Shown piece by piece: positions 1,016-61,831 of a stretch of DNA of 64,000 nt. Positions within the stretch are counted from its first letter, which is position 1; each line of letters opens with the position of its first letter. A program made the position numbers and the translations under genes. The stretch is from a phage. Where the stretch lies: assembly GCA_012401045.1 (NCBI GenBank), contig GCA_012401045.1_4704.1; one strand, 5' to 3'. The notes beneath the pieces are model-generated. The model made no database searches. It was not told the DNA's origin and saw only the letters and a list, made by a program, of their open reading frames with translations.

Positions 1016-1480
1016 TTAAACCAAAGCTGCGATAACGTCGTTAACATTACGGCCTCGCAACTCTGCCGCTAAACGAATAACTTCATCCAGGGAACGGTTT
1101 GTACGAATCTTGGCCACTTTCCAATTTTCAGGATACTGTTCGAAGTTAAGCAACCAAGTCATTACCTTTGCTTGTTCCATACCGTTGAGTTTGATTGTCG
1201 TGCGCGGATTGGCTTTGAACCACTTCTTGCTCAGCTGCGCCATACGGCGAACAGGGTAAGCGTAAGCGCGAGTCCAGTCTTTGGACAGATTGTCGAGTAA
1301 TTCACAGTAGCTGCTGTCGTAGTCTTTATTGATACGACGTAATAACCAGTTGGCGGTCATCTGATAAAGTTTATCATCTTCACGTAACCGCATACCTGCT
1401 ACTGCTAAATAAATGATAAGACCTGCGCCCAGGATGAGAGACAGGATAAACAGAATTTGGGTTTCTTGTGCTAAAGTCAT
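1016..1480 (-). CDS. hypothetical membrane protein (154 aa)
   Basis: ORF track; N-terminal hydrophobic helix ILFILSLILGAGLIIYLAVAGM; followed by hairpin plus U-run. Confidence 0.55.
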   Translation of the reverse strand: MTLAQETQILFILSLILGAGLIIYLAVAGMRLREDDKLYQMTANWLLRRINKDYDSSYCELLDNLSKDWTRAYAYPVRRMAQLSKKWFKANPRTTIKLNGMEQAKVMTWLLNFEQYPENWKVAKIRTNRSLDEVIRLAAELRGRNVNDVIAALV

Positions 1481-1599
1481 TTTACTATCCTCGGATTTCG
1501 TTAGGATTTAATTTCCAATATAAGGGCAATGTGATATGCCTTATACAGTCGATTGATGTTGTACATCACTTAAGTAATATAGCCGTGAAAAATGTTGGA

Positions 1600-2436
1600 T
1601 TAACGTGTTCTCCTATCACGATGCGTATACGACTGAAGACCGATGTCCATATGCGGTAACGTCAGCGTCTGCCAGATCTGTCGTGCGTAACGATCGAGCG
1701 TATGATCATCAGTAACACAATCGACGGGTTCGATGAGGTGAGTCGTATACTGGCTTTTCTCAGAGAAAGGTTCGATGTTAGCTGTATCGCCTAATCCGCT
1801 TTTCACCGTGAAGACAAGACGTGTGACGATCATCGCCTTATGCTGCTGTTCATTATAACGAAGGCTGCGGTATACGGCATAGCTTCCTCCTTTTAGGCTT
1901 CGGGTATAACGAAGGTCGGAGGTCGTCTCGGAAATCTGATACAGCATCCAGTCCAACGTATCACGCCAGTACGCATCATCCACATCAGGAACCGTAATAC
2001 CGTACCGCGTAGGCAGCAATTCTAAAAGCAATTTATAAAGTCCGCGACGTAAGCCATGCTCTTCTGTTTCCGATAAACCGTTTCCAACATAACGTGAAAT
2101 ACGCGTACGTAAATACGTACGGATGAACATATTCGCCATCAGTGTTTTCACTCTGCTACTGGTATCCTCAAAGCGATCAACGCTGAAACTCGTTTCAATC
2201 AGCCGTCCATTAAAATACAATGCAGCAACATACATCGCGTTATTACTATCACGTTCAATGTTTAAACGACCGCAGATATTAGCCGCATCGTTCATGGTAA
2301 ATTCTAATTTATCGTGTTCGATACGATAGATAATATCCTCTTGGGTTGCCAGGCTCGCAATGCGACGGTAGCCCGGAGAAGTACGTTTTACACTCATAAT
2401 TGTCCTCGTTTTCAATTTTAAGATTGCATGCGGCAT
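1600..2436 (-). CDS. hypothetical protein (278 aa)
   Basis: ORF track; ATG preceded by GGAGG (part of a GC hairpin arm). Confidence 0.6.
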   Translation of the reverse strand: MPHAILKLKTRTIMSVKRTSPGYRRIASLATQEDIIYRIEHDKLEFTMNDAANICGRLNIERDSNNAMYVAALYFNGRLIETSFSVDRFEDTSSRVKTLMANMFIRTYLRTRISRYVGNGLSETEEHGLRRGLYKLLLELLPTRYGITVPDVDDAYWRDTLDWMLYQISETTSDLRYTRSLKGGSYAVYRSLRYNEQQHKAMIVTRLVFTVKSGLGDTANIEPFSEKSQYTTHLIEPVDCVTDDHTLDRYARQIWQTLTLPHMDIGLQSYTHRDRRTR

Positions 2437-2438
2437 AA

Positions 2439-2464
2439 ACCCTCCCCGCCTTATGCAGGGAGGG
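2439..2464 (-). terminator. intercistronic CCCTCCC/GGGAGGG hairpin
   Basis: Between CDS 2480..3118 and 1600..2436; 3' arm overlaps the SD of the downstream gene. Confidence 0.35.
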
Positions 2465-2479
2465 TAGCCATTAAATGGA

Positions 2480-5359: not shown

Positions 5360-5401
5360 GGGGTATCTCCTACAAATGAAAAAGAACGTTAGGACGTATA
5401 A

Positions 5402-5425
5402 GGGAGGGAGGTTGCCCTCCCTCCC
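5402..5425 (-). terminator. terminator hairpin downstream of chimallin candidate
   Basis: Perfect 10-bp GGGAGGGAGG/CCTCCCTCCC stem with 4-nt loop; U-rich tail on minus strand. Confidence 0.55.
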
Positions 5426-5451
5426 GTCAGATTACATCGAACGTTCTTCCA

Positions 5452-7347
5452 TTAGAACAGATTGAATGCCCCACCCATGTTGTTAACGCCAACATTCGGA
5501 CGATCGCTACGTGCGTAGATGTTACCGGAGATGTTACCCAGACCACGAGCACGTGCTGCCATGTTACCACGAACAGCGGTACCTGCCAGATGCTGGATGT
5601 TCTCAGGACGGATGGTGAAGCCAGCATCAGCAGCGGCTTCGATCAGCGCCTGCAGTGCTAACGGATCGAAGTCGTAACGCATTGCCCAGCCGGTTTGTTC
5701 CCAGCTACCAGACAGAACACGATCGATGATTTCGTGACGAGCGACAACACGCTGAGACATCGTCATATCGGTACGGTCGAAGCTGTCTTCCCAAGCTTCT
5801 ACGGTATCCGGGTTAGTGATGTTCATCATGTACAGATCGTCCATATCACGAATATCGTGACGGTGACCATCCTGGTGGTTGTAGTGACCCAGCGGGATAC
5901 GGTTACCGGTAGCGTAGACCAGCGGTTGGCCGTATTGATATTTCTTGCTGAAGCAACCCAGGGTAACATCATCGAACGCACGGAAGAGGGCTTTGTAACC
6001 TTCGGAGATTTCACGGACTTCACCTTCAACTTTGCCCGTATAGATCTTCTCAGCCGCCGGGATCATACGCAGCAGCCAGCTGTACTCACCTTCTTCCGGT
6101 ACGTCGATAGAAATCAGCAGAGACGGATACAGTACCTGTTGCAGGAACTTGTAAATCTGCTCGTTGGTTTGAGTAGACAGATCCAGCGGTGCGGTAACTT
6201 CCGGATCCAGTACCATCGCCAGAGCACCCGGGTTATGCGGACCAATACCACGGGCAGCGTTGCTGATTAAAGACTGTGCCCACGCCATACCGCTGTTCAG
6301 CGTAGCGATGGTGCCAATCAGACCCAACACGAAAGTGTTCGGTGTGAACGCATCCAGCTCCAGCGGGTAAGCGCTGGTCATCACGTAACGCGGCTGGTAT
6401 TGTACAGTCGGCGGTACCGGATAACCGTTAACCAGAACAGGGCCTTGGTTGAAGGTCGGGTTCTGCGGGCTGTAAGTCAGGTCAATGTAACCGGTGGTGG
6501 CGACCAGACGCTGTTGACTATCGTAATCGCTCATCGCTTGACGGATGCGGTTAGAGATAGTTACAGTGATGTCAGAACGCACAGGGTTACCAACAATATC
6601 GCTGTCCTGCATACCGCTGGTGTTGTACTGAACGCTGCTGATTGGCTGATCGCTTGCCATCATGCCCAGGTTGAACTGCGGCAGACCCAGTTTATCACCG
6701 AGACGGATTTCGATCGCGGTTTGGATTGCGTTATCTGCAGCAGACAGCAGGGTGGTTGCCAGATGCGCAGATTCAGCGGTGATTTCATTGGTCACCACAG
6801 CCAGACCAGCGATACGAACAGTACCGTTAGACTTACCGCCAATAGCTGAGTACATTGCCGCCATGACTTCGTTGATGAACGTACCGTTCAGGTTATCAAC
6901 CCAGGTACGCGGTACCAGAATGTTACCATGCGGACCTTGTTCTTCACGACGCGGCAGCGGAGCCAGACCAGCAACCAGCGGAAGCACATAACCAAAGAAG
7001 TGGTTATGGTCACCAACTTTTGCACCACTCATAACGACCAGGGTCGGATACGGTACGCTGTACTGGTTCGGGTCAACCGCAACAAAGATGAAGTCGTTTT
7101 TGAACTGGGTATCTTCCAGATATTTCTCCATCAGACGACGGAGATTCAGTACCTGCTCGGAGCCAGTATTACGGCTAATACGACGGCTCAGTGTACGGTT
7201 GATCGTACGCATCGTATGAGTTACTTTAGGCTGGCCAGCAAAATCTGCAGCGGTTTCCAGCGCCTCATCAGCACGTTGTGCGGTGCGGGTTTCAGCTGCA
7301 CGAATTTCTACATTATCGTTACCGTTATTACGTACGTCTAAGCCCAT
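5452..7347 (-). CDS. chmA: putative phage-nucleus shell protein (chimallin-like), 631 aa
   Basis: Size and position immediately upstream of beta' gene as I recall for phiKZ gp54/gp55; strong SD AAGAGGAA; TATATTACCT promoter motif 73 nt upstream; no motif-level confirmation. Confidence 0.45.
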   Translation of the reverse strand: MGLDVRNNGNDNVEIRAAETRTAQRADEALETAADFAGQPKVTHTMRTINRTLSRRISRNTGSEQVLNLRRLMEKYLEDTQFKNDFIFVAVDPNQYSVPYPTLVVMSGAKVGDHNHFFGYVLPLVAGLAPLPRREEQGPHGNILVPRTWVDNLNGTFINEVMAAMYSAIGGKSNGTVRIAGLAVVTNEITAESAHLATTLLSAADNAIQTAIEIRLGDKLGLPQFNLGMMASDQPISSVQYNTSGMQDSDIVGNPVRSDITVTISNRIRQAMSDYDSQQRLVATTGYIDLTYSPQNPTFNQGPVLVNGYPVPPTVQYQPRYVMTSAYPLELDAFTPNTFVLGLIGTIATLNSGMAWAQSLISNAARGIGPHNPGALAMVLDPEVTAPLDLSTQTNEQIYKFLQQVLYPSLLISIDVPEEGEYSWLLRMIPAAEKIYTGKVEGEVREISEGYKALFRAFDDVTLGCFSKKYQYGQPLVYATGNRIPLGHYNHQDGHRHDIRDMDDLYMMNITNPDTVEAWEDSFDRTDMTMSQRVVARHEIIDRVLSGSWEQTGWAMRYDFDPLALQALIEAAADAGFTIRPENIQHLAGTAVRGNMAARARGLGNISGNIYARSDRPNVGVNNMGGAFNLF

Positions 7348-7416
7348 TTGGGATTCCTCTTTTCTTAAACTTTATTAAATGACGTCATTGAATCAGCTTC
7401 TACTCGCTCATTCACC

Positions 7417-7428
7417 TAGGTAATATAA
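7417..7428 (-). promoter_or_regulatory. candidate early promoter motif TTATATTACCTA
   Basis: Exact TATATTACCT also at 36381..36392 and 59085..59096, each 70-125 nt upstream of a minus-strand ATG. Confidence 0.5.
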
Positions 7429-7601
7429 CCCTGAAATTTTTTTCAATATTGGTGTAACCACATTGAACGATATAAACCCCTAGGCGAACGCTGCCGAGAA
7501 GCAACATTCTTTCTACATATAATCAGGATATGTCTGTAAACTTTTACTTCTCTTATTGAGAGTAAAGTCATATCCGTTTACTACCTTCTTACGGAGTTCG
7601 T

Positions 7602-10916: not shown

Positions 10917-10991
10917 AAATCCTCCAAAAGTTATTTAGTCTGTCTACATCATCTCGTATATCTGTTAAAAAAGAAGGACGGCATAAAAAAG

Positions 10992-11019
10992 AACCGATCC
11001 AGCCGAAGCCAGATCGGTT
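10992..11019 (-). terminator. terminator hairpin flanked by A and T runs
   Basis: AACCGATC...GATCGGTT stem, A6 upstream and A5 downstream; after CDS 11215..11628. Confidence 0.5.
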
Positions 11020-15013: not shown

Positions 15014-15066
15014 GCTTTCTCCTACACGGCATAAAAGCCTGCCCCGAAGGACAGGCTCGATAGAAC

Positions 15067-22049: not shown

Positions 22050-22154
22050 TGCATTGCCTTCCGCGAGTGTAATCAGGAAGGTAATGTAGGTTTATTTTAA
22101 TCTCCATTTCGCGATGATATGACAGTCTTTATTACGTTTACCATCTGAGGGAGC

Positions 22155-31589: not shown

Positions 31590-31597
31590 GTAATATT
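31590..31597 (-). promoter_or_regulatory. weaker promoter-like variant AATATTAC
   Basis: About 63 nt upstream of CDS 30580..31527 in divergent intergenic region. Confidence 0.3.
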
Positions 31598-34649: not shown

Positions 34650-34672
34650 CGTAAAAAAAAAAGCATATTAAC

Positions 34673-34713
34673 CTCCCTTCCTTCCCCGGCCTTGACGGCT
34701 AGGGAAGGAAGGT
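34673..34713. terminator. bidirectional terminator
   Basis: CCCTTCCTTCCC...GGGAAGGAAGG stem, A10 upstream and T-rich downstream; between tube candidate and 34725..35264. Confidence 0.6.
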
Positions 34714-35780: not shown

Positions 35781-36260
35781 TCAGTCTTTCAGCAGCTCAG
35801 CTGCATACGCACTGATGTTGTCGCGAATATGCTTAACCTGAGTTGTTGGGAAAGATTTCTTATACGCGGTGGTCAGGCGTCCGTAAACCTGTTTCTTCTC
35901 GTTAGAGCCGAAACCAACTTCAGCGCTACGTTGAACCGTTGCGGACACAACGTCTTTGCCCAGCGGCAGGGTTACAGAAACAACGTCAACCTGCTTGTTA
36001 TCCGCCATGAACTGCGCGCCAACGCGACCTACCGCCAGACCATGAGCCAGACCGATATCGGTGGTCAGTTTCTGTGCTTTTTCCAGGATTTCTTTTTCTT
36101 CCGGCGTTACCAGAGTACCCAGGAAATCACTGCCTAACTTCTGGCTACCAGATTCGTCCAGTTTAATACCAGCGGCGATTTTATCAGAAAGAGCCTGAAC
36201 TTCCGGACGTACGTTAGAAGTGGTTTCAGTCGCTACGGTGGTTTCTACAGCTTCAGACAT
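35781..36260 (-). CDS. hypothetical protein (159 aa), probably abundant early protein
   Basis: ORF track; TGGAG SD; TATATTACCT promoter motif about 124 nt upstream. Confidence 0.6.
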   Translation of the reverse strand: MSEAVETTVATETTSNVRPEVQALSDKIAAGIKLDESGSQKLGSDFLGTLVTPEEKEILEKAQKLTTDIGLAHGLAVGRVGAQFMADNKQVDVVSVTLPLGKDVVSATVQRSAEVGFGSNEKKQVYGRLTTAYKKSFPTTQVKHIRDNISAYAAELLKD

Positions 36261-36380
36261 GTTAATACTCCAATTAGTTTTTTCGATCGATCAAAAGGAT
36301 AAAATCAGAAGATTCTTTCTTCATAGGGAAAACACAAGTCGGTTAAGGTTTACTTCTTAAACTCCTTGCGTTCTATCAGT

Positions 36381-36392
36381 TAGGTAATATAG
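36381..36392 (-). promoter_or_regulatory. candidate early promoter motif CTATATTACCTA
   Basis: Second copy of TATATTACCT, upstream of CDS 35781..36260. Confidence 0.5.
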
Positions 36393-36395
36393 ACC

Positions 36396-37196
36396 TCAAC
36401 TTTTTTCCAATAATGCTGCAACGTTCCGCGCGAAACGAATTACCTTGTAATTGCGGGTCTGTTTGATATCTTCTTCCCCATCACTGTCACCTTCAGACGG
36501 ATCTTCCCACATGAAGTCTTGTTCGTCCGCTTTCTGTAAGTAGCGGTATAACTGCACCATGCTGCGTGCGGTCGGAGAGATAGCGCGAAGCTCATCCAAT
36601 TCTTCATCCGTGAGCAGAACATGCGGTGAACGCAGTGGTTCCATTGTTGTATTACACAACAGACGAATCAGCAGATCGACGCACGGAATAACCGAACCTG
36701 GTGAGGCGATTTCTGGGTGTAATGTATAACCCCAATATACGGTGTTAAAATACGTCAAAACAGCAGGTAGTGACGGATGTTCCATCGCACGGCCAATTTG
36801 CTGTCTTACGATAGATGCACGATCGTTCAATACATCGAAAGTAATCTGCTGCGGTTCCATAACCGCAAGTGAAATACCGTATGCGTCAGCCACACCCAGG
36901 ATTTCATGAAGGGCCGAACGTTCTTCTTCGGTGGATATTGTCCCGATTGCCTTACGCCCTGCAAGGTCAATCAGCATCGGTGAAACAGCTTCTTTAACCG
37001 CATTAAAAGAAGCCTGGTAAGCGTGTTTGTGAATATACAGTGTCCACGCTAATGCGCGCTCAGCCGCATGAAGCAGATCGACATAAGACAGTTCTTGATG
37101 GCATGGGCCATACACACTCACAGCAAGCTTGGTGGCTTTCTCAGAGGCTTGCATAATAACATCTGGTGATTTAGGCATATCGCGTTCTTCTTGCAT
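36396..37196 (-). CDS. hypothetical protein (266 aa)
   Basis: ORF track; ATG with AGGAA SD. Confidence 0.6.
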   Translation of the reverse strand: MQEERDMPKSPDVIMQASEKATKLAVSVYGPCHQELSYVDLLHAAERALAWTLYIHKHAYQASFNAVKEAVSPMLIDLAGRKAIGTISTEEERSALHEILGVADAYGISLAVMEPQQITFDVLNDRASIVRQQIGRAMEHPSLPAVLTYFNTVYWGYTLHPEIASPGSVIPCVDLLIRLLCNTTMEPLRSPHVLLTDEELDELRAISPTARSMVQLYRYLQKADEQDFMWEDPSEGDSDGEEDIKQTRNYKVIRFARNVAALLEKS

Positions 37197-37299
37197 CTTT
37201 TAAATTCCTACTTAACAATAAAGTTCATATACGGCGTATGTATCCGTAGAATAATGGGTTCTGGTAAGATCTTACATCAAAATGACGGCATAAAAAGTA

Positions 37300-37325
37300 C
37301 CTCCTTACCCATGTGGGTAAGGAGG
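37300..37325 (-). terminator. intrinsic terminator candidate
   Basis: CCTCCTTACCC-ATGT-GGGTAAGGAGG; U5 on minus strand; about 150 nt after CDS 37479..38288. Confidence 0.5.
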
Positions 37326-41668: not shown

Positions 41669-44600
41669 TTATTTAGCGTCGTTAAAGTAAATATCAACAG
41701 CTCGTTCCGTTGCGTAGAGGAGACCAAGATTCACAGTCCCAACCACTTCCGGTGAACCGATGATACGGTTAGCGATACTGGTGCCACTGAAGATAGCATC
41801 AAGGGTGTGCCCGTCTTCGGTTTTGTTCACACCATGACCCACGGAAGAGACAACGGATTTCGCTTGAGCTGCGAAGGTACCTTTATCGCCCATCCCCGCA
41901 CCAAGGTCGTAACGCATGAAAATACGGATTGCGATCTGGTTCTCGCCTAACGGATTACCGTCTATTCTCACGTTACTGTTATTGATACGCCCCGTAGCTG
42001 CTTCGTTGAGTTTCAGTTCCTTAACGCGTTTAGCTCGCGCTTTATCTGCATCACCGACGAGCGCCGCCATGGTTTCACTCATATCCTCAATCTGAGCGCG
42101 GTACAACACATCGATCTGTACAACTTCACCATGAACGTCAGCACGTGGGTTATACTGACTCATACGACGTAATGCTTCAACGGCTTCCTGACTCTCATCA
42201 CTCAGATCGGTCGCAATCGGTTCTTCCAGTGTTGCAAGGATCGTTCGTGGTTCAACATGATCGCCGATTTTCACGAGACCACGAATGTTGAGATGGGCGT
42301 CAACGATGAGCGTACGGCTCTTAATCGATGGTGTTACGAGACGATCGGCAAGATTGTCGAAGATATACGAACTGTCCTCGTGAGTCTCTGGAATATCCAG
42401 AATACCGACAAGAGACAGAACACCTGCGCGCCAAACAACCTGACCTGGGTTCCACCAATCGCGTTTAAAATAAAGACGATGGAAGACCACCACATCCTGA
42501 TCCTTAACGCGATCCCCGACTTTATAATCGGTAATAAGATCGTGAGGATAATACTTACCTGGTCCTTTCCCGATTATCGTGCCGAGTTGGAAAACCTCTT
42601 CTCCTAACTCTGGATCGTCGTATTGTATCGTAAGCGCAGTTTTGGTGACCTTCTTAACAACACCATCGCCTTGGGCAGCTGCTGCGAAGAGCTTACCAAC
42701 ACGATGCGCGATAACGGTCTCACCGCCGGTGCGCCACGGTTGTACATCGTAACCCTCAGCGGCAATCATGCGGTTGTGTTGGATCCCGACGAAGACCAGA
42801 CGTTTTCCATCATCACGGTCTACGGCTGGAACAGCTAACGCCGACGTACTCATTACCGATGAGATACCGTCTGTCTTTTCATCGAATGGTCGTGTTTCAC
42901 CATACACCGACACGATATTAGCATTAGGTGCAAGGTAAGCTGAGATACCCACATCCCCACTATCTTTCGTACCCTCTGACACAATACCAACATCGGACTT
43001 GTCGTATTCACGATCACGTGCGCGTCGAAGCGATGTCTTTGAACGACCCCCGATACCGGTCATCGTTGCTTCTTCACCCTGCTTGATATCCAGCATCGGG
43101 TTGGTTTCATCGATCACGATGGACGCGCTGTCGTCGAGAATTTGGTTCCAGACGCTTACCGGACTGATTGAGATTTTCTGGCGATTTCCTTGACTGCTGT
43201 TCTCATTCTGACGAATAGCGCCAACCAGATCCTTATACACCAATTCAGCGAACTTATCGTACGTTTTAAAACGTTGGTAGTTCACATCGTTGGTGTTAGG
43301 TGCCCAGTCATCCAGAAGCAGTTCAACAGCACGCAGTAACAACATGGCGAAATCGGTAGGTTCTCCCATGTTCTGTAGCAACGTACGGCTTACCGGATCA
43401 ACGAAAAGACGCTCCATGAGTTCAAGTTCGCGTAAATGGCGAACCTTAAGTCCAGCACCATCAACAACGTTAAAATAGATATCTCGATTGTCGAAAGCAC
43501 CGCGAGCGTAACCGATGTAGTTACGGTATTCGTTAAACCCACCCAGCAACAACGTCGTCATGCGATCGTCTTTACTGAAGATCAAACTTTCGTCATCAAA
43601 GCTCACCGCGAATTCATCGGGTGCTAATCCCATACGAGAACCGCGAGGTACCGTACGATAGTTCGCTTTAAGATGTTCTAATAACGGGGTAAGTCCACCC
43701 AGATAACTTAGAACGACACCAACCGGAATACGTACACCCATGAATTCAAGATCGGCGGCTTCGATCGGCATCTTAGCCGCATTGATACCGAAGAAATCAG
43801 GGAACGTCCCTACAGGTGTTGGTGTTTGTCCTGACTGACAGATATAGAGCTGATTGCGTTTATCGATTGCTAAGAATTCACCCAGCGTGTTACGCGCAAA
43901 CGTCAGGAGCCCTTCGGCTAACTGTTCGTTGAACCGATCTTCCCCGATGAACTCCGGCAATGTCTTTGTATCGAGACGTATATCCCAATCAGCAAATTGG
44001 ATTTGGGTATAGTTGCGTGCAAGCACAGCGAAGTAATACGGGACTTTGACGGCCGGATCAAAGACGTTACCACGTTTTAACGTGGTTAAGGGTGAGGACT
44101 TATCGTAATACATCGCTGTAAGTTGGCGTGTTAACCAACGACCGGCGTTATTAACGACACGCTCTGAACGTTTAACAAACACCTTACCGTAGGCGGTACT
44201 CAACGCAACTTCGGATGATGATACCTTTCTAATAGGTTTATCAACACGTTGTTTACGCATCCGGTATTTGATGCCGTTAACGACATAAATGCCGTCCTTA
44301 CGAACCTTCGGCAACATCACCGGGAACGTGGTTGGGACACCGCCTACAGGGGCCAGTTTAATCGTGATAACTTGATAATCCCCCATCACGTCAACAACAT
44401 CTTCAACTTTATATCCCGTGACAGGGTAACCTGCCTGTTGTACGGCAACAACAGCGGCTGCGATGTCCTTTTGCATCACGTGTTCAACGTAATGTTTATC
44501 CCACACCGCAAGCGTCGATTTACATAGGCTCTTATCGACGATAACATCCGCTTCCGGCATAACCTTTGCTGGCGCTAATTTCGCGGCTTTTGGTTTAACT

Positions 44601-46015
44601 TCAACATACTCAGCAAGTGTTAATCCAGAACCGTCGGGTGCTTCGATTTCATGGATGGCGTCGGCATTACGCATCGCTGCTTTATATTGGACACCGCTTA
44701 ACTGACCCGCATCCGCCAGATCGCTCGCGCGCACCAACACCGCATCCGATAACGACTGAATATATTCACCGTGTGTTTTTGGTAACGTTGCCGCGTCAAA
44801 GACATCAACCTTTTCTTCTTCGGTATCGTCGGTAACGACCTCGAAGAGATCGTCGGTAATGTCCTGATCTTCATCGGGTTGGAAATCCGGCTGTACTTCT
44901 ACCCCGGGTACTTCACGGACATCTTCGAACGAGCGTTCTACAATGGCGTTCCACGCATCAGCGTCATCGTCTTCATCCGACCCACCAACCAACTCCGCTT
45001 CTAACTCATCGGGATCAAGAACAGTGGCCAGATCCTCACCGTTAGGAAGCACGACGTCGCGATCATCGTACTCTGCATCCGGGCTGTCCGCAAGAATATC
45101 TCGCTCTTGACGAAGAACCTGTTCCTCTTCTTGTTTCTGTTCTTCTTCATTCGCGCTCTGCGACCATAGACGTGTTACCGCCATCATCCAACGACGCTGG
45201 AAGGTTTCGAGTGTCGTTTTATCGAGTTCTTCCCCTTCCTTTACAAGCCCGGTACGCCATTCTTCCAACAGGCCGAGATTCAGCGTAAAGAAGTACACGC
45301 CGTCTGTAAATACAACGTTAAGCTTATCCAGCGTGGCTCTGTCTAACGAAGCCATCGTGCTGTTCTCACGATCGGTTCCCAGCCAGCGGAAGAAGTCAAA
45401 GAACGACAGCTCCTCCGGCGTAGCGAAATTCATGAGGTTGTTACGGGTCGGTGCCTGTTGCGTGGTACGCATCAACGAAATCTTCGGCAATGTTGACGGT
45501 ATACGGAACAACAGAAAGTGTTGGCGATCGCTTTGCTGCGCGATTTCGTTGGCTTTCGACCAAATTGTTTTACGTACGTTGAACCATTCATCATACCAAC
45601 GGGTGAGCGTTGGACGATAGATGTACATGTGGTTAAGATGTGCGTAGTTAGCAACGATCTGAGCGTTGATGTTTTTCTCCACCGTACTTAGATCGGTAAC
45701 CAAACGAAAACGACGATGTGACGCACGATAATCCAATTTCGCTCGTGGGAGCTGGAATCGCTGATCACGTCGAGGTGCACCCTGTTTGGTTGCGAGATCA
45801 TCAGCAAACGAAATCCATAGTTGAGCACTTTCTTTACTCAACATGTATTCGTTTTCTGGAGGACCTATCAATGAAGGATCCGTTGCGGTGTAATGATAGA
45901 CAGCATAACGTGGCAGCTGCAATAGCTGCACTAAACGTAATCTCGGTGACAATAGCTCTTGGTAGCGTCTGACGCCAAACTGTCGGTAGTAATCAAGGTA
46001 TTTAAGTTTTGCCAT
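41669..46015 (-). CDS. RNA polymerase beta-like subunit with long N-terminal extension (1448 aa), probably virion RNAP
   Basis: RpoB-like motifs: GIGGRSKTSLRRARD...DVGIVSEG...GDVGIS (fork/Rif region), LAVPAVDRDDGKRLV, VKIGDHVEP, GMGDKG near C-terminus; coupled 3 nt after beta' paralog. Confidence 0.6.
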   Translation of the reverse strand: MAKLKYLDYYRQFGVRRYQELLSPRLRLVQLLQLPRYAVYHYTATDPSLIGPPENEYMLSKESAQLWISFADDLATKQGAPRRDQRFQLPRAKLDYRASHRRFRLVTDLSTVEKNINAQIVANYAHLNHMYIYRPTLTRWYDEWFNVRKTIWSKANEIAQQSDRQHFLLFRIPSTLPKISLMRTTQQAPTRNNLMNFATPEELSFFDFFRWLGTDRENSTMASLDRATLDKLNVVFTDGVYFFTLNLGLLEEWRTGLVKEGEELDKTTLETFQRRWMMAVTRLWSQSANEEEQKQEEEQVLRQERDILADSPDAEYDDRDVVLPNGEDLATVLDPDELEAELVGGSDEDDDADAWNAIVERSFEDVREVPGVEVQPDFQPDEDQDITDDLFEVVTDDTEEEKVDVFDAATLPKTHGEYIQSLSDAVLVRASDLADAGQLSGVQYKAAMRNADAIHEIEAPDGSGLTLAEYVEVKPKAAKLAPAKVMPEADVIVDKSLCKSTLAVWDKHYVEHVMQKDIAAAVVAVQQAGYPVTGYKVEDVVDVMGDYQVITIKLAPVGGVPTTFPVMLPKVRKDGIYVVNGIKYRMRKQRVDKPIRKVSSSEVALSTAYGKVFVKRSERVVNNAGRWLTRQLTAMYYDKSSPLTTLKRGNVFDPAVKVPYYFAVLARNYTQIQFADWDIRLDTKTLPEFIGEDRFNEQLAEGLLTFARNTLGEFLAIDKRNQLYICQSGQTPTPVGTFPDFFGINAAKMPIEAADLEFMGVRIPVGVVLSYLGGLTPLLEHLKANYRTVPRGSRMGLAPDEFAVSFDDESLIFSKDDRMTTLLLGGFNEYRNYIGYARGAFDNRDIYFNVVDGAGLKVRHLRELELMERLFVDPVSRTLLQNMGEPTDFAMLLLRAVELLLDDWAPNTNDVNYQRFKTYDKFAELVYKDLVGAIRQNENSSQGNRQKISISPVSVWNQILDDSASIVIDETNPMLDIKQGEEATMTGIGGRSKTSLRRARDREYDKSDVGIVSEGTKDSGDVGISAYLAPNANIVSVYGETRPFDEKTDGISSVMSTSALAVPAVDRDDGKRLVFVGIQHNRMIAAEGYDVQPWRTGGETVIAHRVGKLFAAAAQGDGVVKKVTKTALTIQYDDPELGEEVFQLGTIIGKGPGKYYPHDLITDYKVGDRVKDQDVVVFHRLYFKRDWWNPGQVVWRAGVLSLVGILDIPETHEDSSYIFDNLADRLVTPSIKSRTLIVDAHLNIRGLVKIGDHVEPRTILATLEEPIATDLSDESQEAVEALRRMSQYNPRADVHGEVVQIDVLYRAQIEDMSETMAALVGDADKARAKRVKELKLNEAATGRINNSNVRIDGNPLGENQIAIRIFMRYDLGAGMGDKGTFAAQAKSVVSSVGHGVNKTEDGHTLDAIFSGTSIANRIIGSPEVVGTVNLGLLYATERAVDIYFNDAK

Positions 46016-46018
46016 GGG

Positions 46019-47707
46019 TTAGGCTCCACGAGGTCCCGTTAAGTTGCGTAATAGGAACGCAACCGTATCGTAACCAATATCGATGTTGAATTTATTTTTA
46101 CCACTTACCCAGAAAGCTCGCTTCTTGTGCGAGTTGGTAATTTCGTCAATAGCTTCCATGGAATAAAGAACGTTAACCGAGACCGTATCACCATCAAAGT
46201 CCCCACCAAGTCCGGCGAGGTATGGCGCAGGGACAATAGTCGTTTCTACGAACGAAGCATTAGGTAACCAGTCGGGGTATTCCCATGCGATAAATCGTTC
46301 ATCCGTTATTGGTTCCCAGTTACTATCCAGTTCGGTTTTCGGTTTTGCGGCGACGGTTGTACGTGCGTAACAGGTTAACGGGATAACGGATTGCATACCT
46401 GATACCGGATAACGTGTTACCATCGCAGCCAGGTTATTCCAGTACTTATATCCGGCAATATAGATAAGCTCGGTGTAAGTAATGGGGTGAACATCCGCGC
46501 CAGGTTTATTCAACATCTCCGGGGGTAATTCACTCATGCCACGGAATAACCGAAACGAATCGTTGTTCACATAGACGAGGCAAAGATATCGTCCATTGAC
46601 CATGATAGGCTCGTTACGCACGCCAGGATCGCTTAAGGTGTTCAGTAAACGTTCTATTCCGTCCCATGTTGTAAAGTCATCGATGGTGTCTGGATCAAGC
46701 GTGACGCGCTCACGTTCCATCGTTTCGGTATCAGTAAGTTCAACTTCTGTAACATCACGGACAAATATTTCCTGCAAAATACCGGTACGTAACGCATGTT
46801 GCGTTACTGGGAGAGCGGCTTTACTCATCTGGTATAACCCTAACTGAACCGCGGTACAGGAAGGCTGGTTAGGCGACCCTAATACCTCCGTTGTGGGGTT
46901 AATTGCCGAAATAACGTTACGGGTTGAGTTCCAAACGCGACGTGAACCAAACTTACCTTGGAAGATCCCTTTCTTACCCTGGAACATATCCAACAGTAAA
47001 GCGTAGATATCGTTGAATGTTCTCTGTAAGCTCCAGCGCTGGCCGTCGTAAACGGGATCGGAATAATCTTTTAATCCATCAGGGACGGTGTTAGAAATTG
47101 CAAGGAAACGACGATACAACTCCGTGATTTCTTGCTCGCTTTCATACCCACCTTCTTTTACTTCTATTTCACGTAAGCCTGCAGGCAATACCAGTAAGTG
47201 ACGGGTCATCGCTTTGAACATGTTCTCTTCGACAACTTTAATTCGTAGCTCTCGTTGAGCTGAACCCGTTGAAACGAACTTGATATCCGCGACGTGTTGT
47301 GCAAAGAACCCGTATCCTGTTTGTCCTGTTAATGCATCAGACGCAACGAAGTCGCGTTGTTCGGGATCCCACCGAGCGTACGCCTTCCCCGACATGATAT
47401 CGCCATAGAGGTGTTTTAATCGAATGAGACGGTCGTAAATGACAGGATGCAGGATTTCAACCTTGCATTCAATCACCGCAAATCGACGGTCTCGATCTTC
47501 ACTACCCGCACTACCAAAGATGGTGTAAGAATAGAAACCATCATCGTGGAAATTACCGGTGCTTGGGTCACGAATGCTCATGCTCGTGATCTTGGGGAGA
47601 AAACGTAACTGCTGTTTATCGAGGTGTAAAATACTAATATTAAACGGCTCTCTGACTTTAGCCATGGAGACACTCCTCTTTACCACCACCGGCTGCGGCG
47701 GTATCAT
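46019..47707 (-). CDS. RNA polymerase beta'-like subunit, N-terminal fragment (562 aa as tracked; alternative start ATG 47665 with AGAGGAG SD)
   Basis: LGGDFDGDTVSV catalytic-type motif about 55 aa from C-terminus; RFAVIECKVEILHPV near N-terminus; no zinc ribbon. Confidence 0.55.
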   Translation of the reverse strand: MIPPQPVVVKRSVSMAKVREPFNISILHLDKQQLRFLPKITSMSIRDPSTGNFHDDGFYSYTIFGSAGSEDRDRRFAVIECKVEILHPVIYDRLIRLKHLYGDIMSGKAYARWDPEQRDFVASDALTGQTGYGFFAQHVADIKFVSTGSAQRELRIKVVEENMFKAMTRHLLVLPAGLREIEVKEGGYESEQEITELYRRFLAISNTVPDGLKDYSDPVYDGQRWSLQRTFNDIYALLLDMFQGKKGIFQGKFGSRRVWNSTRNVISAINPTTEVLGSPNQPSCTAVQLGLYQMSKAALPVTQHALRTGILQEIFVRDVTEVELTDTETMERERVTLDPDTIDDFTTWDGIERLLNTLSDPGVRNEPIMVNGRYLCLVYVNNDSFRLFRGMSELPPEMLNKPGADVHPITYTELIYIAGYKYWNNLAAMVTRYPVSGMQSVIPLTCYARTTVAAKPKTELDSNWEPITDERFIAWEYPDWLPNASFVETTIVPAPYLAGLGGDFDGDTVSVNVLYSMEAIDEITNSHKKRAFWVSGKNKFNIDIGYDTVAFLLRNLTGPRGA

Positions 47708-57889: not shown

Positions 57890-57927
57890 CACGTCCTCCT
57901 GAAAAAGAAAAAAGAAATACGGCATAA

Positions 57928-57971: not shown

Positions 57972-58484
57972 TTAAACTTCTTCGTTTTCTGAACCTAATG
58001 ATTCAGCATCTGGATCGTCAACAGGAATGGTTGCATCAAAATACCGTTTCGTATGCGTGGTTGTATATCCTACGCTATCTGTGATGGAAATCGTAAACGT
58101 GACTTCCCTTGCACGGATTAAGCGTAGTTTATTCATGAAGTTACGGAACGGCATCGATCCCCGATTCAACTCCTTAATGACGTTTCCCCGAATACTGGAA
58201 ATGTCTTTATTCGTTTTATCAGGGTGTCGTTTCTTCACATCACGCATATGTCGGGTAATATACGAATTGAGCTGATTTGCGCCGATCCCTCTCTCCGTAT
58301 AAATCTGCAACAGGAACTCCGTAAGGAAATCCTGTCTACCCGTAGGCGTCCAGAAATTGTTACCGTGATTGTAGTTAGTCGCTCGTCCTCGATTGCTTTG
58401 AGGATTTTCATCATCGCTTTCATCACGACGCTTAAGCGGATTAATGCGTGCGCGGAAAGAGACTTCATTATATTTATTTGTCAT
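57972..58484 (-). CDS. hypothetical protein (about 170 aa; track start TTG 58529)
   Basis: ATG 58484 overlaps upstream stop (ATGA coupling). Confidence 0.5.
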   Translation of the reverse strand: MTNKYNEVSFRARINPLKRRDESDDENPQSNRGRATNYNHGNNFWTPTGRQDFLTEFLLQIYTERGIGANQLNSYITRHMRDVKKRHPDKTNKDISSIRGNVIKELNRGSMPFRNFMNKLRLIRAREVTFTISITDSVGYTTTHTKRYFDATIPVDDPDAESLGSENEEV

Positions 58485-58996
58485 AATACACCAGTGTACT
58501 GACTGAGTGCGAAGGTTAGGAGTTCGCAACAGTCTCTCGCTAGTTTCCTTGTTTTGCGTAATCCATAAGCCGCATCCAAATCGTCACGTTCCGCCAGCGC
58601 GTCTAACCACGTCGCAAGTATGCGTCCATACTCGATAACGTCACGCATGAGAACGTCGAACCGGATAACACGACCATCGGCATCAGCAAGCCAACGATTG
58701 AACGTGATTTGTGGTGCTAGTATTGCATATGTTCTCTCCTCTAATGCGATTATGTTTATGTTGCCTTCGTTATCGAACGCTTGATGCCAACGGCGAAGGT
58801 CAAGCATCAACGACTCAGCGTCCATATACCACAACGGTAAATACGTTTTACGTGCAACGCGTATATCGTAGATGTTGTGAACCCAGGACGTTGTTTTGTA
58901 AAGCAACAAGAGTTCGTTTAACCGTTGCCTATCATCTTGAAACGTCTTCCTTTTATAACGTTGGAACGCACGCCTCAAGAAAAAGCGATGTAACAT
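58481..58996 (-). CDS. hypothetical protein (171 aa)
   Basis: ORF track; ATG with AGGTGA SD; TATATTACCT promoter motif about 92 nt upstream. Confidence 0.6.
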   Translation of the reverse strand: MLHRFFLRRAFQRYKRKTFQDDRQRLNELLLLYKTTSWVHNIYDIRVARKTYLPLWYMDAESLMLDLRRWHQAFDNEGNINIIALEERTYAILAPQITFNRWLADADGRVIRFDVLMRDVIEYGRILATWLDALAERDDLDAAYGLRKTRKLARDCCELLTFALSQYTGVL

Positions 58997-59084
58997 GGCA
59001 TCACCTATGTATCATTCTTGCAGGCATCAATGAAGCCATCACAAGAAGGTAACGTTATACGTCGCCTTCATGACTGTCATCATG

Positions 59085-59096
59085 AAGGTAATATAG
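59085..59096 (-). promoter_or_regulatory. candidate early promoter motif CTATATTACCTT
   Basis: Third copy of TATATTACCT, upstream of CDS 58481..58996. Confidence 0.5.
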
Positions 59097-59129
59097 TCCT
59101 GTTATTTTTTTCAATACGGAGAATGTAAA

Positions 59130-61156: not shown

Positions 61157-61831
61157 TTAGCCCTCATCAAGGTTATTCTGGAGATGCATCGCGGTGAGGA
61201 TAACGCCAACCGCCGAAACCGATTTTGCCTTGCTGTCTTCAGGGAGCTGCTCCAAGCTTACGGTACCTGTTTCTAACAGCATGCGGTTCATTGCGTTGAA
61301 CTTCTTATCGTCACCACCACGAGCCTGCATCAGCTCTCGGTTCACGTTCGGCATCGACCGTCCTAACGTCGCTTGCATTTCCGGCTGGCTCCAAGTGGAA
61401 CCTTTACTATCACCCGTCGGCTGATTGGTGAGCTGGTCCTTGGTGTTGTTGTTTTTCGGAATCGAAATTTTAGCACTCAACGTTTCGGCTTGTCGGCGGT
61501 TTGGAATCAGGTACAATCTGGTTGGGCGGTCACGAAGCACCAATTGCCCTGTTTTCTGGTCGGTGAGATAAATGCGTTGGAAGAAAGGGAAACCGTATTT
61601 CTTACCGACTTCCAACGCACGTTTTATCGTCACCTCGTTTTTGTTCATGTTGGGTACCCAGATGGGTAGAATCTCTTTCTTATCCCGACATAAACGCATA
61701 TAGGCATCAAACGTCTCATCATCGATTTCAGCAAAACGTTTTTTGTAAATAGCGTAAGTCGGGCTCGATTCACCCACCAGGTCTTTGATATACCCAAGAA
61801 TGAATTTTTCTGCTGCAGCGCGGTTGGACAT
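61157..61831 (-). CDS. hypothetical protein (224 aa)
   Basis: ORF track. Confidence 0.55.
   Translation of the reverse strand: MSNRAAAEKFILGYIKDLVGESSPTYAIYKKRFAEIDDETFDAYMRLCRDKKEILPIWVPNMNKNEVTIKRALEVGKKYGFPFFQRIYLTDQKTGQLVLRDRPTRLYLIPNRRQAETLSAKISIPKNNNTKDQLTNQPTGDSKGSTWSQPEMQATLGRSMPNVNRELMQARGGDDKKFNAMNRMLLETGTVSLEQLPEDSKAKSVSAVGVILTAMHLQNNLDEG

What the first reader, a model, noticed from the sequence alone, without database searches (positions are those of the whole stretch)
7417..7428. Conserved TATATTACCT motif upstream of four minus-strand genes: candidate phage early promoter
The 10-mer TATATTACCT occurs three times on the minus strand (7417..7428, 36381..36392, 59085..59096), each 70-125 nt upstream of an ATG with a good SD. 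A weaker AATATTAC is at 31590..31597. Three exact copies of a 10-mer in 64 kb, all in the same relative position, is not expected by chance. As I recall, phiKZ early promoters share an AT-rich TATATTAC-like core. Plus-strand genes instead show TTTATTACG about 25-130 nt upstream (22127, 31535).
Basis: partly seen in the sequence, partly recalled or inferred. Interest (0 to 1): 0.55.

Follow-up and report, generated by a model that had tools for sequence, protein, structure and literature searches.

The report
Jumbo-phage virion-polymerase early promoters
The repeated TATATTACCT is the core of a ~37-base promoter that a Goslar-like nucleus-forming jumbo phage most likely uses, with the RNA polymerase it carries in its virion, to switch on its first genes; it is a clear but expected example of a promoter type already known from phiKZ-like phages.

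Summary
The three exact TATATTACCT copies are real and non-random: 3 observed against 0.11 expected. The window is a fourth Goslar-like E. coli jumbo phage (Chimalliviridae), 96-98% identical to Goslar.

The 10-mer is the core of a ~37-nt tripartite element: TAAT-N-CAAAAWW / TTTCACG-NC / TAYATTAC / YTWN-RTGA.
- The window has four strong copies, all on the minus strand.
- Goslar has 12 strong copies, all on the minus strand. Eleven cores are intergenic, and all point the same way as the next gene.

One copy sits 72 nt upstream of the nuclear-shell gene chmA. The mapped phiKZ early promoter of chmA matches it at 30 of 38 bases with the same spacing. A Goslar-derived matrix finds a significant site upstream of chmA in 9 of 10 distant chimalliviruses.

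The sites do not fit sigma-70 geometry. Four of the five virion RNA polymerase subunits are encoded in the window.

Verdict: these are phiKZ-type early promoters read by the virion RNA polymerase, a new member of a known kind. No 5' end data were available, so the start sites are inferred.

The parts
7412..7448 (-). Early promoter P-chmA. Core TATATTAC is at 7420-7427, the upstream block ATATTGAAAAAAATTTCAGGGT at 7428-7448, and the initiator-like GGTGA at 7412-7416. The predicted start site is G 7413 (+/-2).
   Evidence: Matrix score is 49.8 bits, and 31.8 bits with a matrix trained only on non-orthologous sites, against a maximum of 18.2 in 200 simulated windows. It matches the phiKZ PHIKZ054 upstream element at 30 of 38 bases. 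It is identical in four Goslar-like genomes.
1566..1602 (-). Core TATATTAC is at 1574-1581; the full element reads TTAATCCAACATTTTTCACGGC-TATATTAC-TTAAGTGA. The predicted start site is G 1567.
   Evidence: It is the best site in the window: 56.5 bits and 52.3 bits cross-validated. It lies in the intergenic gap 1481-1599 upstream of ORF 1016-1480.
36376..36412 (-). Early promoter. Core is at 36384-36391, and the upstream block TTATTGGAAAAAAGTTGAGGTC overlaps the last codons of ORF 36396-37196. The predicted start site is G 36377.
   Evidence: Matrix score is 47.7 bits and 24.2 bits cross-validated. The core ends 123 nt before the ATG at 36260.
59080..59116 (-). Early promoter. Core is at 59088-59095, in the gap between divergent genes 58481-58996(-) and 59130-59759(+). 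The predicted start site is G 59081.
   Evidence: Matrix score is 46.5 bits and 24.6 bits cross-validated. The core ends 91 nt before the ATG at 58996.
5452..7347 (-). chmA (chimallin, the nuclear-shell protein), first gene of the unit driven by the promoter at 7427.
   Evidence: Matches Pfam PF25677 at E=2.8e-27 and phrog_4795 at E=4.8e-55. It is 99% identical to Goslar gp246. chmA is transcribed at 5 min post infection in Goslar (PMC10541120).
4088..5359 (-). Non-virion RNA polymerase beta-prime subunit, exon 1. It is the second gene downstream of the chmA promoter. The chmA then nvRNAP gene order is conserved in all 10 distant chimalliviruses examined.
   Evidence: Matches phrog_2987 at E=2.3e-117. 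It is 100% identical to Goslar gp247. Gene order is shown.
1016..1480 (-). First gene of the unit driven by the promoter at 1581: a 154-aa protein with no family match (Goslar gp182 homolog).
   Evidence: ORF list. No Pfam or PHROG match, which is typical of early genes.
35781..36260 (-). First gene of the unit driven by the promoter at 36391 (159 aa, Goslar gp214 homolog). It is followed by 35264-35677 (DUF488-N3a) and 34725-35264.
58481..58996 (-). First gene of the unit driven by the promoter at 59095 (171 aa, Goslar gp200 homolog). It is followed by 57972-58529.
41669..46015 (-). Virion RNA polymerase large subunit (Goslar gp207 homolog), part of the enzyme proposed to read the promoters.
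   Evidence: Matches phrog_3148 at 1387 bits and is 96.2% identical in DNA to Goslar gp207. gp207 was detected in Goslar virions by mass spectrometry (bioRxiv 10.64898/2026.04.21.720040).
46019..47707 (-). Virion RNA polymerase subunit (Goslar gp205 homolog), present here as an uninterrupted 562-aa gene.
   Evidence: Matches phrog_2986 at E=4e-179. It maps to two Goslar exons that are 2,044 bp apart.
61157..61831 (-). Virion RNA polymerase subunit (Goslar gp196 homolog).
   Evidence: Matches phrog_3233 at E=1e-65. GFP-tagged gp196 is packaged into virions and co-localises with injected DNA (PMC10541120).
39100..39810 (-). Virion protein that is the homolog of Goslar gp210, which is listed as the fifth virion RNA polymerase subunit.
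   Evidence: Matches phrog_2926 at E=3.7e-56.

Best explanation

Each promoter has three blocks plus an initiator:
- An upstream 'AWT-NN-AAA' A/T block, about -34 to -27 from the start site.
- A TTTCAcG or A-tract block, about -23 to -17.
- A -10-like TAYATTAC, about -14 to -7.
- A conserved RTGA, with transcription predicted to start at its G. That G is 14 nt after the first T of the core: window positions 1567, 7413, 36377 and 59081 on the minus strand.

Right after injection the vRNAP would bind these sites without host sigma factors. It would transcribe leftward units that encode chimallin plus a non-virion RNA polymerase subunit, and small early proteins without family matches.

Shown here: the sequence element, its statistics, its gene context, its homology to mapped phiKZ-family early promoters, and the presence of the vRNAP genes. 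Inferred: the enzyme that reads the sites, the exact start site and the timing.
For: 1. Non-random occurrence and the extended motif.
- Three 10-mers were found against 0.11 expected.
- The window has four sites scoring 46-57 bits, and the next best scores 12.
- With a matrix trained only on the eight Goslar sites outside the window-equivalent region, the four sites score 24-52 bits. The maximum in 200 Markov-simulated 64-kb sequences was 18.2.

2. Genome-wide behaviour in Goslar.
- There are 12 strong sites, all on the minus strand, and the score distribution is bimodal.
- Eleven of 12 cores lie in the 7.1% of the genome that is intergenic. The twelfth lies in a doubtful 62-aa ORF.
- All 12 are co-oriented with the next gene, 31-211 nt upstream of it.
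- TATATTAC is the most enriched 8-mer in upstream regions, p about 2e-9.

3. Gene context. One site precedes chmA followed by the nvRNAP beta-prime gene. chmA is expressed at 5 min post infection from EPI (early phage infection) vesicles that contain vRNAP in Goslar (PMC10541120).

4. Homology to characterised promoters.
- The phiKZ chmA upstream region carries AATGAAAAAAATTTGAGATTTATATTACTAAATTGAAT, which matches at 30 of 38 bases and has the same 72-nt gap to the ATG.
- That gene has a dRNA-seq primary start site with the early motif (PMC8244752).
- The Goslar matrix finds a site upstream of chmA in 9 of 10 distant chimalliviruses, with at most 7 of 2000 shuffles reaching the observed score.
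- Published consensus sequences for 201phi2-1, OBP and N1M2 have the same blocks (PMC7058600).
- 201phi2-1 and phiKZ early promoters are conserved at their -10, -20 and -30 regions, with the AT-rich motif about 10 bp upstream of the start site (PMC11512511; PMC7598289).
- The 24-nt pattern also occurs in four EL/RisingSun-like uncultivated jumbo contigs that have no DNA similarity to Goslar.

5. The enzyme. Four of the five Goslar vRNAP subunits map to the window.

6. No site meets sigma-70 spacing or consensus on its own strand.
Against: - No transcript 5' end data for this genome or for Goslar were accessible. The chmA start site in PMC10541120 is given only in a figure, and the supplements are not held.
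- Comparison within the genus has no resolving power. The whole chmA intergenic region is almost invariant among the four genomes.
- Only 12 strong sites were found in Goslar, yet 175 of 249 genes are detected at 5 min post infection. Either the units are very long or leaky, or further unrecognised early promoters exist.
- The predicted leaders of 66-117 nt are longer than the 31-40 nt typical of phiKZ.
- According to a 2020 review, vRNAP had not been purified from any jumbo phage, and my searches found no later in vitro work. The assignment to this enzyme therefore rests on timing and rifampicin data from phiKZ and AR9.
Confidence: 0.88

Rival explanations
1. The sites are host sigma-70 promoters. 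E. coli RNA polymerase would use TATATT as a -10 hexamer, and TTGAAA as a -35 hexamer in the A-tract copies.
For: TATATT matches TATAAT at 5 of 6 positions. Three copies contain TTGAAA or TTGGAA upstream.
Against: - The TTGAAA to TATATT spacer is 13 nt, not 16-18.
- The consensus scanner reports no sigma-70-like site overlapping any of the four elements on the motif strand.
- The invariant positions outside a sigma-70 hexamer are unexplained by sigma-70 and are shared with phages of Pseudomonas, Erwinia, Ralstonia and Proteus. These are C at core position 8, T at +9, TG at +13/+14, G at -3 and A at -15 and -20.
- phiKZ-type infection does not depend on host RNA polymerase (PMC7598289).
Confidence: 0.04
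2. The sites are promoters for the non-virion RNA polymerase (middle or late class) rather than for the virion enzyme.
For: phiKZ chmA also has a secondary start site with the middle-promoter motif. Timing was not measured here.
Against: - phiKZ middle promoters have a TACT motif at -22 preceded by an A-repeat, and late promoters have only TATG at the start site. Neither resembles this element.
- None of the 12 Goslar sites directly precedes one of the late structural genes named in the RNA-seq study (major head protein, tail sheath), or the terminase. The site at 43266 lies just downstream of the major head gene and points away from it.
- A non-virion polymerase subunit lies downstream of one site, so that site must fire before the non-virion enzyme exists.
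Confidence: 0.05
3. The element is not a promoter. It could be a binding site for a phage regulator, or a repeated or mobile sequence that happens to lie between genes.
For: Some positions co-vary between copies: CGGC-TAT-TT versus CGAC-TAC-CT. This could reflect copying of a repeat.
Against: - Orientation is strictly tied to the downstream gene for 12 of 12 sites, and the element is absent from the plus strand.
- The position upstream of chmA is conserved in genomes that share no other DNA similarity.
- The homologous phiKZ and 201phi2-1 elements have mapped start sites about 10 bp downstream.
- A phiKZ consensus early promoter was placed on a transposon to drive acrVIA1, although removing it changed transposition efficiency only slightly (PMC12676376).
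Confidence: 0.03

Closest known systems
phiKZ early (vRNAP) promoters, mapped by primer extension, RNA-seq, dRNA-seq and ONT-cappable-seq (28-32 sites)
   Same: Both have a TATATTAC core centred near -10 and an A/T-rich block upstream. Both sit upstream of early genes, including chmA followed by an nvRNAP subunit gene. The chmA promoters match at 30 of 38 bases with the same 72-nt gap to the ATG.
   Different: The host is E. coli and the genome is 47% GC, not 37%. Only about 12 strong sites were found per genome. One third of the Goslar sites use a TACATTAC core. Most sites carry a lineage-typical CAACATTTTTCACGGC block instead of the A7 tract. The RTGA initiator block is more strongly conserved. 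No start sites have been mapped.
Predicted early-promoter consensus sequences of 201phi2-1 (TTAWTAVAA_HYWTTTRARR_BTATATTACDWHDGTG), OBP and Klebsiella phage N1M2
   Same: The block order and spacing are the same: an upstream TTAWTAVAA-like element, TTTYARR, the ATATTA core, and GTG 4-5 nt downstream. For 201phi2-1 the motif lies about 10 bp upstream of mapped start sites and is conserved at its -10, -20 and -30 regions.
   Different: Individual bases differ; for example OBP and N1M2 end the core with T (ATATTAT). These are different genera with no DNA similarity to Goslar.
Pseudomonas phage EL early-promoter consensus (WTTTYAAACCTACATTATY) and EL/RisingSun-like uncultivated contigs
   Same: The TACATTA core variant matches the four TACATTAC sites of Goslar. 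Four EL/RisingSun-like IMG/VR contigs carry TTTCACGTC-TATATTAC-TTGGGTGA upstream of small ORFs and right after a terminator hairpin.
   Different: The upstream block differs (TTTAAGATACAG), and only one site per fetched locus was seen.
Bacterial sigma-70 promoters
   Same: The geometry is similar: a -10-like AT-rich element that ends near -7, plus upstream elements around -20 and -30.
   Different: The sequence and spacing do not fit. These phages encode no sigma homolog for the virion enzyme. This is an analogy of layout, not membership.
Coliphage N4 virion RNA polymerase early promoters
   Same: The strategy is the same: a polymerase carried in the virion transcribes early genes from phage-specific promoters.
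   Different: The N4 enzyme is a single-subunit giant polymerase that recognises DNA hairpin promoters. Here the sites have no conserved hairpin and the enzyme is a split multisubunit beta/beta-prime polymerase.

Membership tests
Chimalliviridae (phiKZ-like) vRNAP early promoter | Highly conserved AT-rich core of about 8-10 nt (TATATTAC or a close variant) | tested here: met
   The core is TATATTAC in 4 of 4 window sites and TAYATTAC in 12 of 12 Goslar sites; seven of its eight positions are invariant.
Chimalliviridae (phiKZ-like) vRNAP early promoter | Additional conserved blocks at about -20 and -30 relative to the start site (T-rich or A/T-rich) | tested here: met
   TTTCACG lies at -9 to -3 from the core start. 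A is present at -15 and -20 in 12 of 12 sites, within a TAAT-N-CAAAA block. The same blocks appear in the published consensus sequences and in the chmA upstream regions of 10 other genera.
Chimalliviridae (phiKZ-like) vRNAP early promoter | Located in intergenic DNA, upstream of and co-oriented with presumed early operons | tested here: met
   In the window 4 of 4 cores are intergenic. In Goslar 11 of 12 are, in a genome that is 92.9% coding, and 12 of 12 are co-oriented with the next gene. The chance of 11 or more of 12 falling in 7.1% of the genome is about 3e-12, by my binomial calculation.
Chimalliviridae (phiKZ-like) vRNAP early promoter | Core centred about 10 nt upstream of the 5' end of early transcripts | not testable with these tools
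   No 5' end data were accessible. The position is inferred from phiKZ and 201phi2-1 and from the conserved RTGA at +12 to +15.
Chimalliviridae (phiKZ-like) vRNAP early promoter | Downstream genes are transcribed immediately after infection, independently of host RNA polymerase and of new protein synthesis | not testable with these tools
   Literature only: Goslar chmA is expressed at 5 min post infection and during arrest at the EPI-vesicle stage. Nothing is known for the other three units.
Chimalliviridae (phiKZ-like) vRNAP early promoter | The genome encodes a virion-packaged multisubunit beta/beta-prime RNA polymerase | tested here: met
   Window ORFs 61157-61831, 46019-47707 and 41669-46015 match PHROG RNA polymerase beta families. 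ORF 39100-39810 matches a virion protein family. They are homologs of Goslar gp196, gp205, gp207 and gp210, which are found in virions.
Chimalliviridae (phiKZ-like) vRNAP early promoter | Orthologous position: an early promoter upstream of chmA followed by the nvRNAP beta-prime gene | tested here: met
   phiKZ matches at 30 of 38 bases. Nine of 10 distant genomes have a significant site 70-158 nt before chmA.
Bacterial sigma-70 promoter | TTGACA-like and TATAAT-like hexamers separated by 16-18 nt | tested here: not met
   No qualifying match overlaps any of the four sites on the motif strand. The TTGAAA to TATATT spacer is 13 nt.
phiKZ-type late (nvRNAP) promoter | TATG overlapping the start site, with no upstream consensus | tested here: not met
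   The predicted start region is RTGA preceded by YTWN, not TATG. TATG-containing elements form a separate class in this genome.

The most novel reading that the evidence does not exclude
These sites have an ATTGAAAAAAA tract and a CAGG/GACG block, and they are nearly identical to the phiKZ chmA promoter. The other eight Goslar sites (CAACATTTTTCACGRC) would then be a lineage-specific subclass. On this reading the virion polymerase sees two promoter classes that differ in strength or timing, for example immediate-early genes such as chmA versus delayed-early genes. A corollary is that vRNAP specificity has been frozen since the phiKZ-Goslar split, so early promoters would be portable between genera.
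Probability: 0.2. Interest if true: 0.45.

Novelty: new member of a known kind. Interest (0 to 1): 0.3.

Why it matters
- It gives the Goslar group, the E. coli model for nucleus-forming phages, a usable early-promoter definition. This includes a 37-nt consensus, 12 genomic sites and predicted start sites. No promoter is annotated in the Goslar record, and the Goslar RNA-seq paper never mentions one.
- Such a definition helps with engineering, for example early expression cassettes of the kind already built for phiKZ. It also helps with re-annotating transcription units and with designing templates for the virion polymerase, for which my searches found no in vitro characterisation.
- The near-identity of the chmA promoter between phiKZ and Goslar, whose ChmA proteins are only about 24% identical, shows how strongly vRNAP promoter recognition is conserved across the family.
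- It does not change current understanding of how these phages work.

Tried and rejected
- **Window versus Goslar substitutions.** I compared the promoter regions to test motif against flank. The regions are 99-100% identical, so the test has no power.
- **Four-genome alignment of the chmA intergenic region.** It has only 3 variable columns, all far upstream, so it also has no power.
- **Closer relatives through ChmA.** The phage collection holds nothing between 99% and about 24% identity. IMG/VR holds only two Goslar-like contigs.
- **Published start-site tables.** Supplements for Wicke 2020, Putzeys 2024 and Armbruster 2024 are not held, and Ceyssens 2014 is not held.
- **AATATTAC at 31597 as a weak member.** Rejected, because it has no extended motif.
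- **TTTATTACG as a plus-strand promoter motif.** Rejected, because the copies share no flanks and are mostly coding.
- **TACATTACCT at 22081-22088(-) as a fifth promoter.** It is intergenic and co-oriented. However, its 11.5-12 bits fall within the range of simulated maxima, so it is not counted.
- **Sigma-70 reading.** Rejected.
- **Hairpin-TATGCYGT as simply the late promoter.** Not accepted as such, because 21 of 46 intergenic copies point away from any co-oriented gene.

Full report
**1. The observation**

TATATTACCT occurs exactly three times in the 64-kb window. All three are on the minus strand, at 7418-7427, 36382-36391 and 59086-59095. The expected count is 0.11, and none of 100 dinucleotide-preserving shuffles reached three. 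The 8-mer TATATTAC occurs six times, all on the minus strand.

Reading the flanks shows the three copies share much more than the 10-mer. Each has TATTG(A/G)AAAAAA about 9 nt upstream and a TGA 4-5 nt downstream. A fourth TATATTAC, at 1574-1581, carries a related extended block (AATCCAACATTTTTCACGGC-TATATTAC-TTAAGTGA). The copies at 57087 and 58255 have no such flanks.

**2. What genome this is**

The window is about 96-98% identical to Escherichia phage vB_EcoM_Goslar, a nucleus-forming jumbo phage of the Chimalliviridae. It is not identical to Goslar or to the two Goslar-like IMG/VR contigs (98.2, 97.1 and 96.2% identity), so it is a fourth genome of this group.

I fetched the whole annotated Goslar genome. 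The record annotates terminators but no promoters.

**3. The real extent of the element**

A position weight matrix seeded on the Goslar TATATTAC sites and iterated once gives a bimodal result.
- Twelve Goslar sites score 46-57 bits. The next best sites score 12.9 and 12.0, and everything else is below 7.
- All twelve are on the minus strand. Eight have a TATATTAC core and four have TACATTAC.
- The consensus runs from -21 to +15 relative to the core start: T-A-A-T-N-C-A-A-A-A-W-W-T-T-T-C-A-C-G-N-C-TAYATTAC-Y-T-W-N-R-T-G-A.
- Invariant positions are A at -20, A at -15, G at -3, seven of the eight core positions, T at +9, and T and G at +13 and +14.

The window has four strong sites, with core starts at 1581, 7427, 36391 and 59095.

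To avoid circularity I retrained the matrix on the eight Goslar sites that lie outside the window-equivalent region. The four window sites then score 52.3, 31.8, 24.6 and 24.2 bits. The maximum in 200 Markov-simulated windows was 18.2, with a mean of 5.5.

A weak TACATTACCT at 22081-22088 scores 11.5, which is inside the null range.

**4. Gene context**

Goslar is 92.9% coding. Eleven of the 12 cores are intergenic. The twelfth lies in a 62-aa annotated ORF whose 'start codon' is the ATG inside another regulatory-looking motif.

All 12 sites are co-oriented with the next gene, and the core ends 31-211 nt before its start. By my binomial calculation, 11 or more of 12 falling in 7.1% of the genome has a probability of about 3e-12.

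An unbiased k-mer count over 138 upstream regions ranks TATATTAC as the most enriched 8-mer and TATATTA as the most enriched 7-mer.

In the window the sites precede these genes:
- ORF 1016-1480, a protein with no family match.
- ORF 5452-7347, which is chimallin/ChmA (PF25677, phrog_4795). It is followed by 4088-5359, a non-virion RNA polymerase beta-prime subunit (phrog_2987).
- ORF 35781-36260.
- ORF 58481-58996.

**5. Comparison with what is known**

A published table lists predicted early promoters of phiKZ-like phages (PMC7058600):
- phiKZ: TATATTAC.
- 201phi2-1: TTAWTAVAA_HYWTTTRARR_BTATATTACDWHDGTG.
- OBP: BSHAWWWWWTTTYARRYAKATATTATYWWADTG.
- N1M2: similar to OBP.
- EL: WTTTYAAACCTACATTATY.

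The block order and spacing are those found here.

Reviews and transcriptome papers add the following.
- Every RNA-polymerase-encoding jumbo phage has such a motif upstream of early operons.
- Wherever transcripts were profiled, the motif proved to be the early promoter.
- It is centred near -10 (PMC7598289).
- In phiKZ and 201phi2-1 the -10, -20 and -30 regions are conserved (PMC11512511).
- phiKZ chmA (PHIKZ054) has a primary start site with the early motif (PMC8244752).

I fetched the phiKZ chmA upstream region. It reads AATGAAAAAAATTTGAGATT-TATATTAC-TAAATTGAAT. The window reads ATTGAAAAAAATTTCAGGGT-TATATTAC-CTAGGTGAAT. That is 30 of 38 identical bases. In both, 72 nt separate the core from the ATG, although the ChmA proteins are only about 24% identical.

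I repeated this for nine more distant chimalliviruses: PhiPA3, RAY, Eowyn, RSL2, RTH11, Proteus phage 10, Noxifer, pEa_SNUABM_37 and RP12.
- All have the chmA then nvRNAP gene order.
- The Goslar matrix finds a site 70-158 nt upstream of chmA that is beaten by at most 7 of 2000 shuffles in nine of the ten distant genomes tested, phiKZ included. RTH11 is marginal.
- The shared skeleton is AWT-NN-AAA...TTT...TATATTAC-N4-KTG.

A pattern scan of IMG/VR with TTCACGNCTAYATTACYTNNNTGA returned the Goslar-like genomes plus four 214-229-kb contigs. Those four have no DNA similarity to Goslar and are EL/RisingSun-like. In them the element follows a terminator hairpin and precedes small ORFs.

**6. Mechanism**

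The best-supported model is that these are promoters for the virion-packaged multisubunit RNA polymerase.

Goslar's five vRNAP subunits (gp78, gp196, gp205, gp207 and gp210) are detected in virions (bioRxiv 10.64898/2026.04.21.720040). [quoted passage not shown] Four of these five subunits are encoded in the window.

If the core is centred near -10, as in phiKZ and 201phi2-1, the conserved RTGA overlaps the start site. I predict initiation at its G, at minus-strand positions 1567, 7413, 36377 and 59081. That gives leaders of 87, 66, 117 and 85 nt.

The enzyme, the start site and the timing are inferences. No 5' end data could be accessed.

**7. Rivals**

- Sigma-70 promoters. TATATT is a fair -10 hexamer. 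However, the spacing to TTGAAA is 13 nt and the consensus scanner finds nothing on the motif strand at any site. The invariant positions outside a sigma-70 hexamer are shared with phages of unrelated hosts.
- Promoters for the non-virion polymerase. The known middle (TACT at -22) and late (TATG at +1) motifs differ. In addition, an nvRNAP subunit gene lies downstream of one site.
- A non-promoter repeat or operator. Strict co-orientation and the conserved position in genomes with no other DNA similarity argue against this.

**8.

- AATATTAC at 31590-31597 has no extended motif, and the 8-mer is not enriched (6 observed, 2.8 expected).
- TTTATTACG is over-represented (5 observed, 0.83 expected). 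But the copies share no flanks and three of five are inside ORFs. In Goslar 11 copies likewise show nothing in common.

**9. Side observations**

*Hairpin-TATGCYGT.* The second most enriched upstream signal is (T)TTATGCYGT placed directly after a GC-rich hairpin.
- Of the 46 intergenic TATGCY copies in Goslar, 30 follow a hairpin of -8 kcal/mol or stronger.
- Twenty-one of the 46 point away from any co-oriented gene.
- Three lie 39-42 nt upstream of an early-promoter core.
- The clearest window copies are at 2437, 10985, 15033, 37292 and 57926 on the minus strand.
- Each early unit in the window appears to be bounded by such an element.
- A variant lies in the 92-nt gap between chmA and the nvRNAP gene: a hairpin within a -41 kcal/mol fold (z = -5.7) followed by TTATACGTCC. 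Armbruster et al. report a separate start site at 5 min post infection for that gene.
- The element contains the TATG that defines phiKZ late promoters, whose specificity is an open problem (PMC12809450). Conserved terminator motifs are also known in phiKZ and 201phi2-1.
- Whether this module terminates transcription, restarts it, or does both is unresolved.

*Introns.* The window lacks Goslar's HNH genes gp186 and gp206.
- The vRNAP subunit gene 46019-47707 is an intron-less allele. It maps to two Goslar exons 2,044 bp apart.
- The nvRNAP beta-prime gene is still interrupted. A group I intron lies at 3727-4094, at 49.3 bits against a gathering score of 50, with a weaker second hit at 3413-3723.
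- The interruption falls inside the catalytic NADFDGD motif. Exon 1 ends ...GYNADF, 'DGDA' follows the first intron, and the C-terminal exon is the 'gp185' ORF that ends at 3134.

**10. Verdict**

The core observation is real. Interest is modest. The practical gain is a working early-promoter definition for the Goslar model system, with predicted start sites that can be tested.

Noticed in passing
window 2430-2465(-), 10978-11019(-), 15026-15058(-), 37285-37326(-), 57919-57955(-); weaker copy at 34660-34700(-): A recurrent module: a GC-rich hairpin followed directly by (T)TTATGCYGT.
- It is the second most enriched upstream signal in Goslar. There are 46 intergenic TATGCY copies, and 30 of them follow a hairpin of -8 kcal/mol or stronger.
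- It occurs in both orientations, including between convergent genes.
- In Goslar it lies 39-42 nt upstream of three early-promoter cores.
- It contains the TATG of phiKZ late promoters.
- It may be a phage-specific terminator, a restart site, or both.
   Followed up: partly
window 5360-5451(-), hairpin about 5400-5432: The 92-nt gap between chmA and the nvRNAP beta-prime gene folds at -41 kcal/mol (z = -5.7). The hairpin is GGGAGGGAGGG-CAAC-CCTCCCTCCC, followed by TTATACGTCC, a variant of the hairpin-TTATGCYGT module. The literature reports a separate start site at 5 min post infection for the nvRNAP gene in Goslar.
   Followed up: partly
window 3134-4114(-): The nvRNAP beta-prime gene appears to be split inside its catalytic NADFDGD motif.
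- Exon 1 (4088-5359) ends ...GYNADF.
- A group I intron lies at 3727-4094 (49.3 bits, just under Rfam's gathering score of 50).
- 'DGDA' is at 3714-3725.
- A weak second intron hit lies at 3413-3723.
- The C-terminal homology sits in the 'gp185' ORF that ends at 3134.
- The annotated 423-aa and 79-aa proteins are therefore probably exons of one gene.
   Followed up: partly
window 46019-47707(-) and the junction at 3728/3731: The window lacks both HNH homing-endonuclease genes of Goslar. The vRNAP subunit gene is an uninterrupted 562-aa ORF. In Goslar the same gene is split by a 2,044-bp group I intron that carries gp206. A 1,065-bp insertion carrying gp186 is also absent.
   Followed up: yes
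window 22081-22088(-): TACATTACCTTCCTGA lies in the intergenic gap upstream of ORF 21498-22049. It has the core and the TGA but not the upstream blocks. It scores 11.5-12 bits, within the null range, and is identical in Goslar. It may be a weak or degenerate early promoter.
   Followed up: partly
window 8354, 19279, 22128, 31538 and 55014: TTTATTACG is over-represented (5 observed, 0.83 expected), but the copies share no flanking similarity and are mostly inside ORFs. It is probably a compositional or codon effect.
   Followed up: yes
window 2436 (start of ORF 1600-2436); Goslar gp183, gp047 and gp111: Several start codons are the ATG inside TTATGCC of the hairpin module: the start of window ORF 1600-2436 and the annotated Goslar starts of gp183, gp047 and gp111. 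A better Shine-Dalgarno sequence and ATG lie further downstream, so these starts, and perhaps the 62-aa gp047 itself, are likely mis-calls.
   Followed up: no
window 59065-59088(-): The last base of the promoter core and the predicted 5' end of the transcript from the promoter at 59095 form a 9-bp hairpin (CCTTCATGA-TGACAG-TCATGAAGG). The only difference from Goslar in this stretch falls in the loop.
   Followed up: no
L019 8030-8110; also L023, L027 and L028: Four uncultivated EL/RisingSun-like jumbo-phage contigs (214-229 kb) have no DNA similarity to Goslar. Each carries terminator hairpin - TTTAAGATACAG-N4-TTTCACGTC-TATATTAC-TTGGGTGA upstream of small ORFs. The same early-promoter grammar therefore spans very distant chimalliviruses.
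   Followed up: partly
whole window: The window is not Goslar itself, nor either Goslar-like IMG/VR contig (98.2, 97.1 and 96.2% identity in the chmA region). It represents a fourth genome of this small, isolated lineage. The next ChmA relatives are only about 23% identical.
   Followed up: yes
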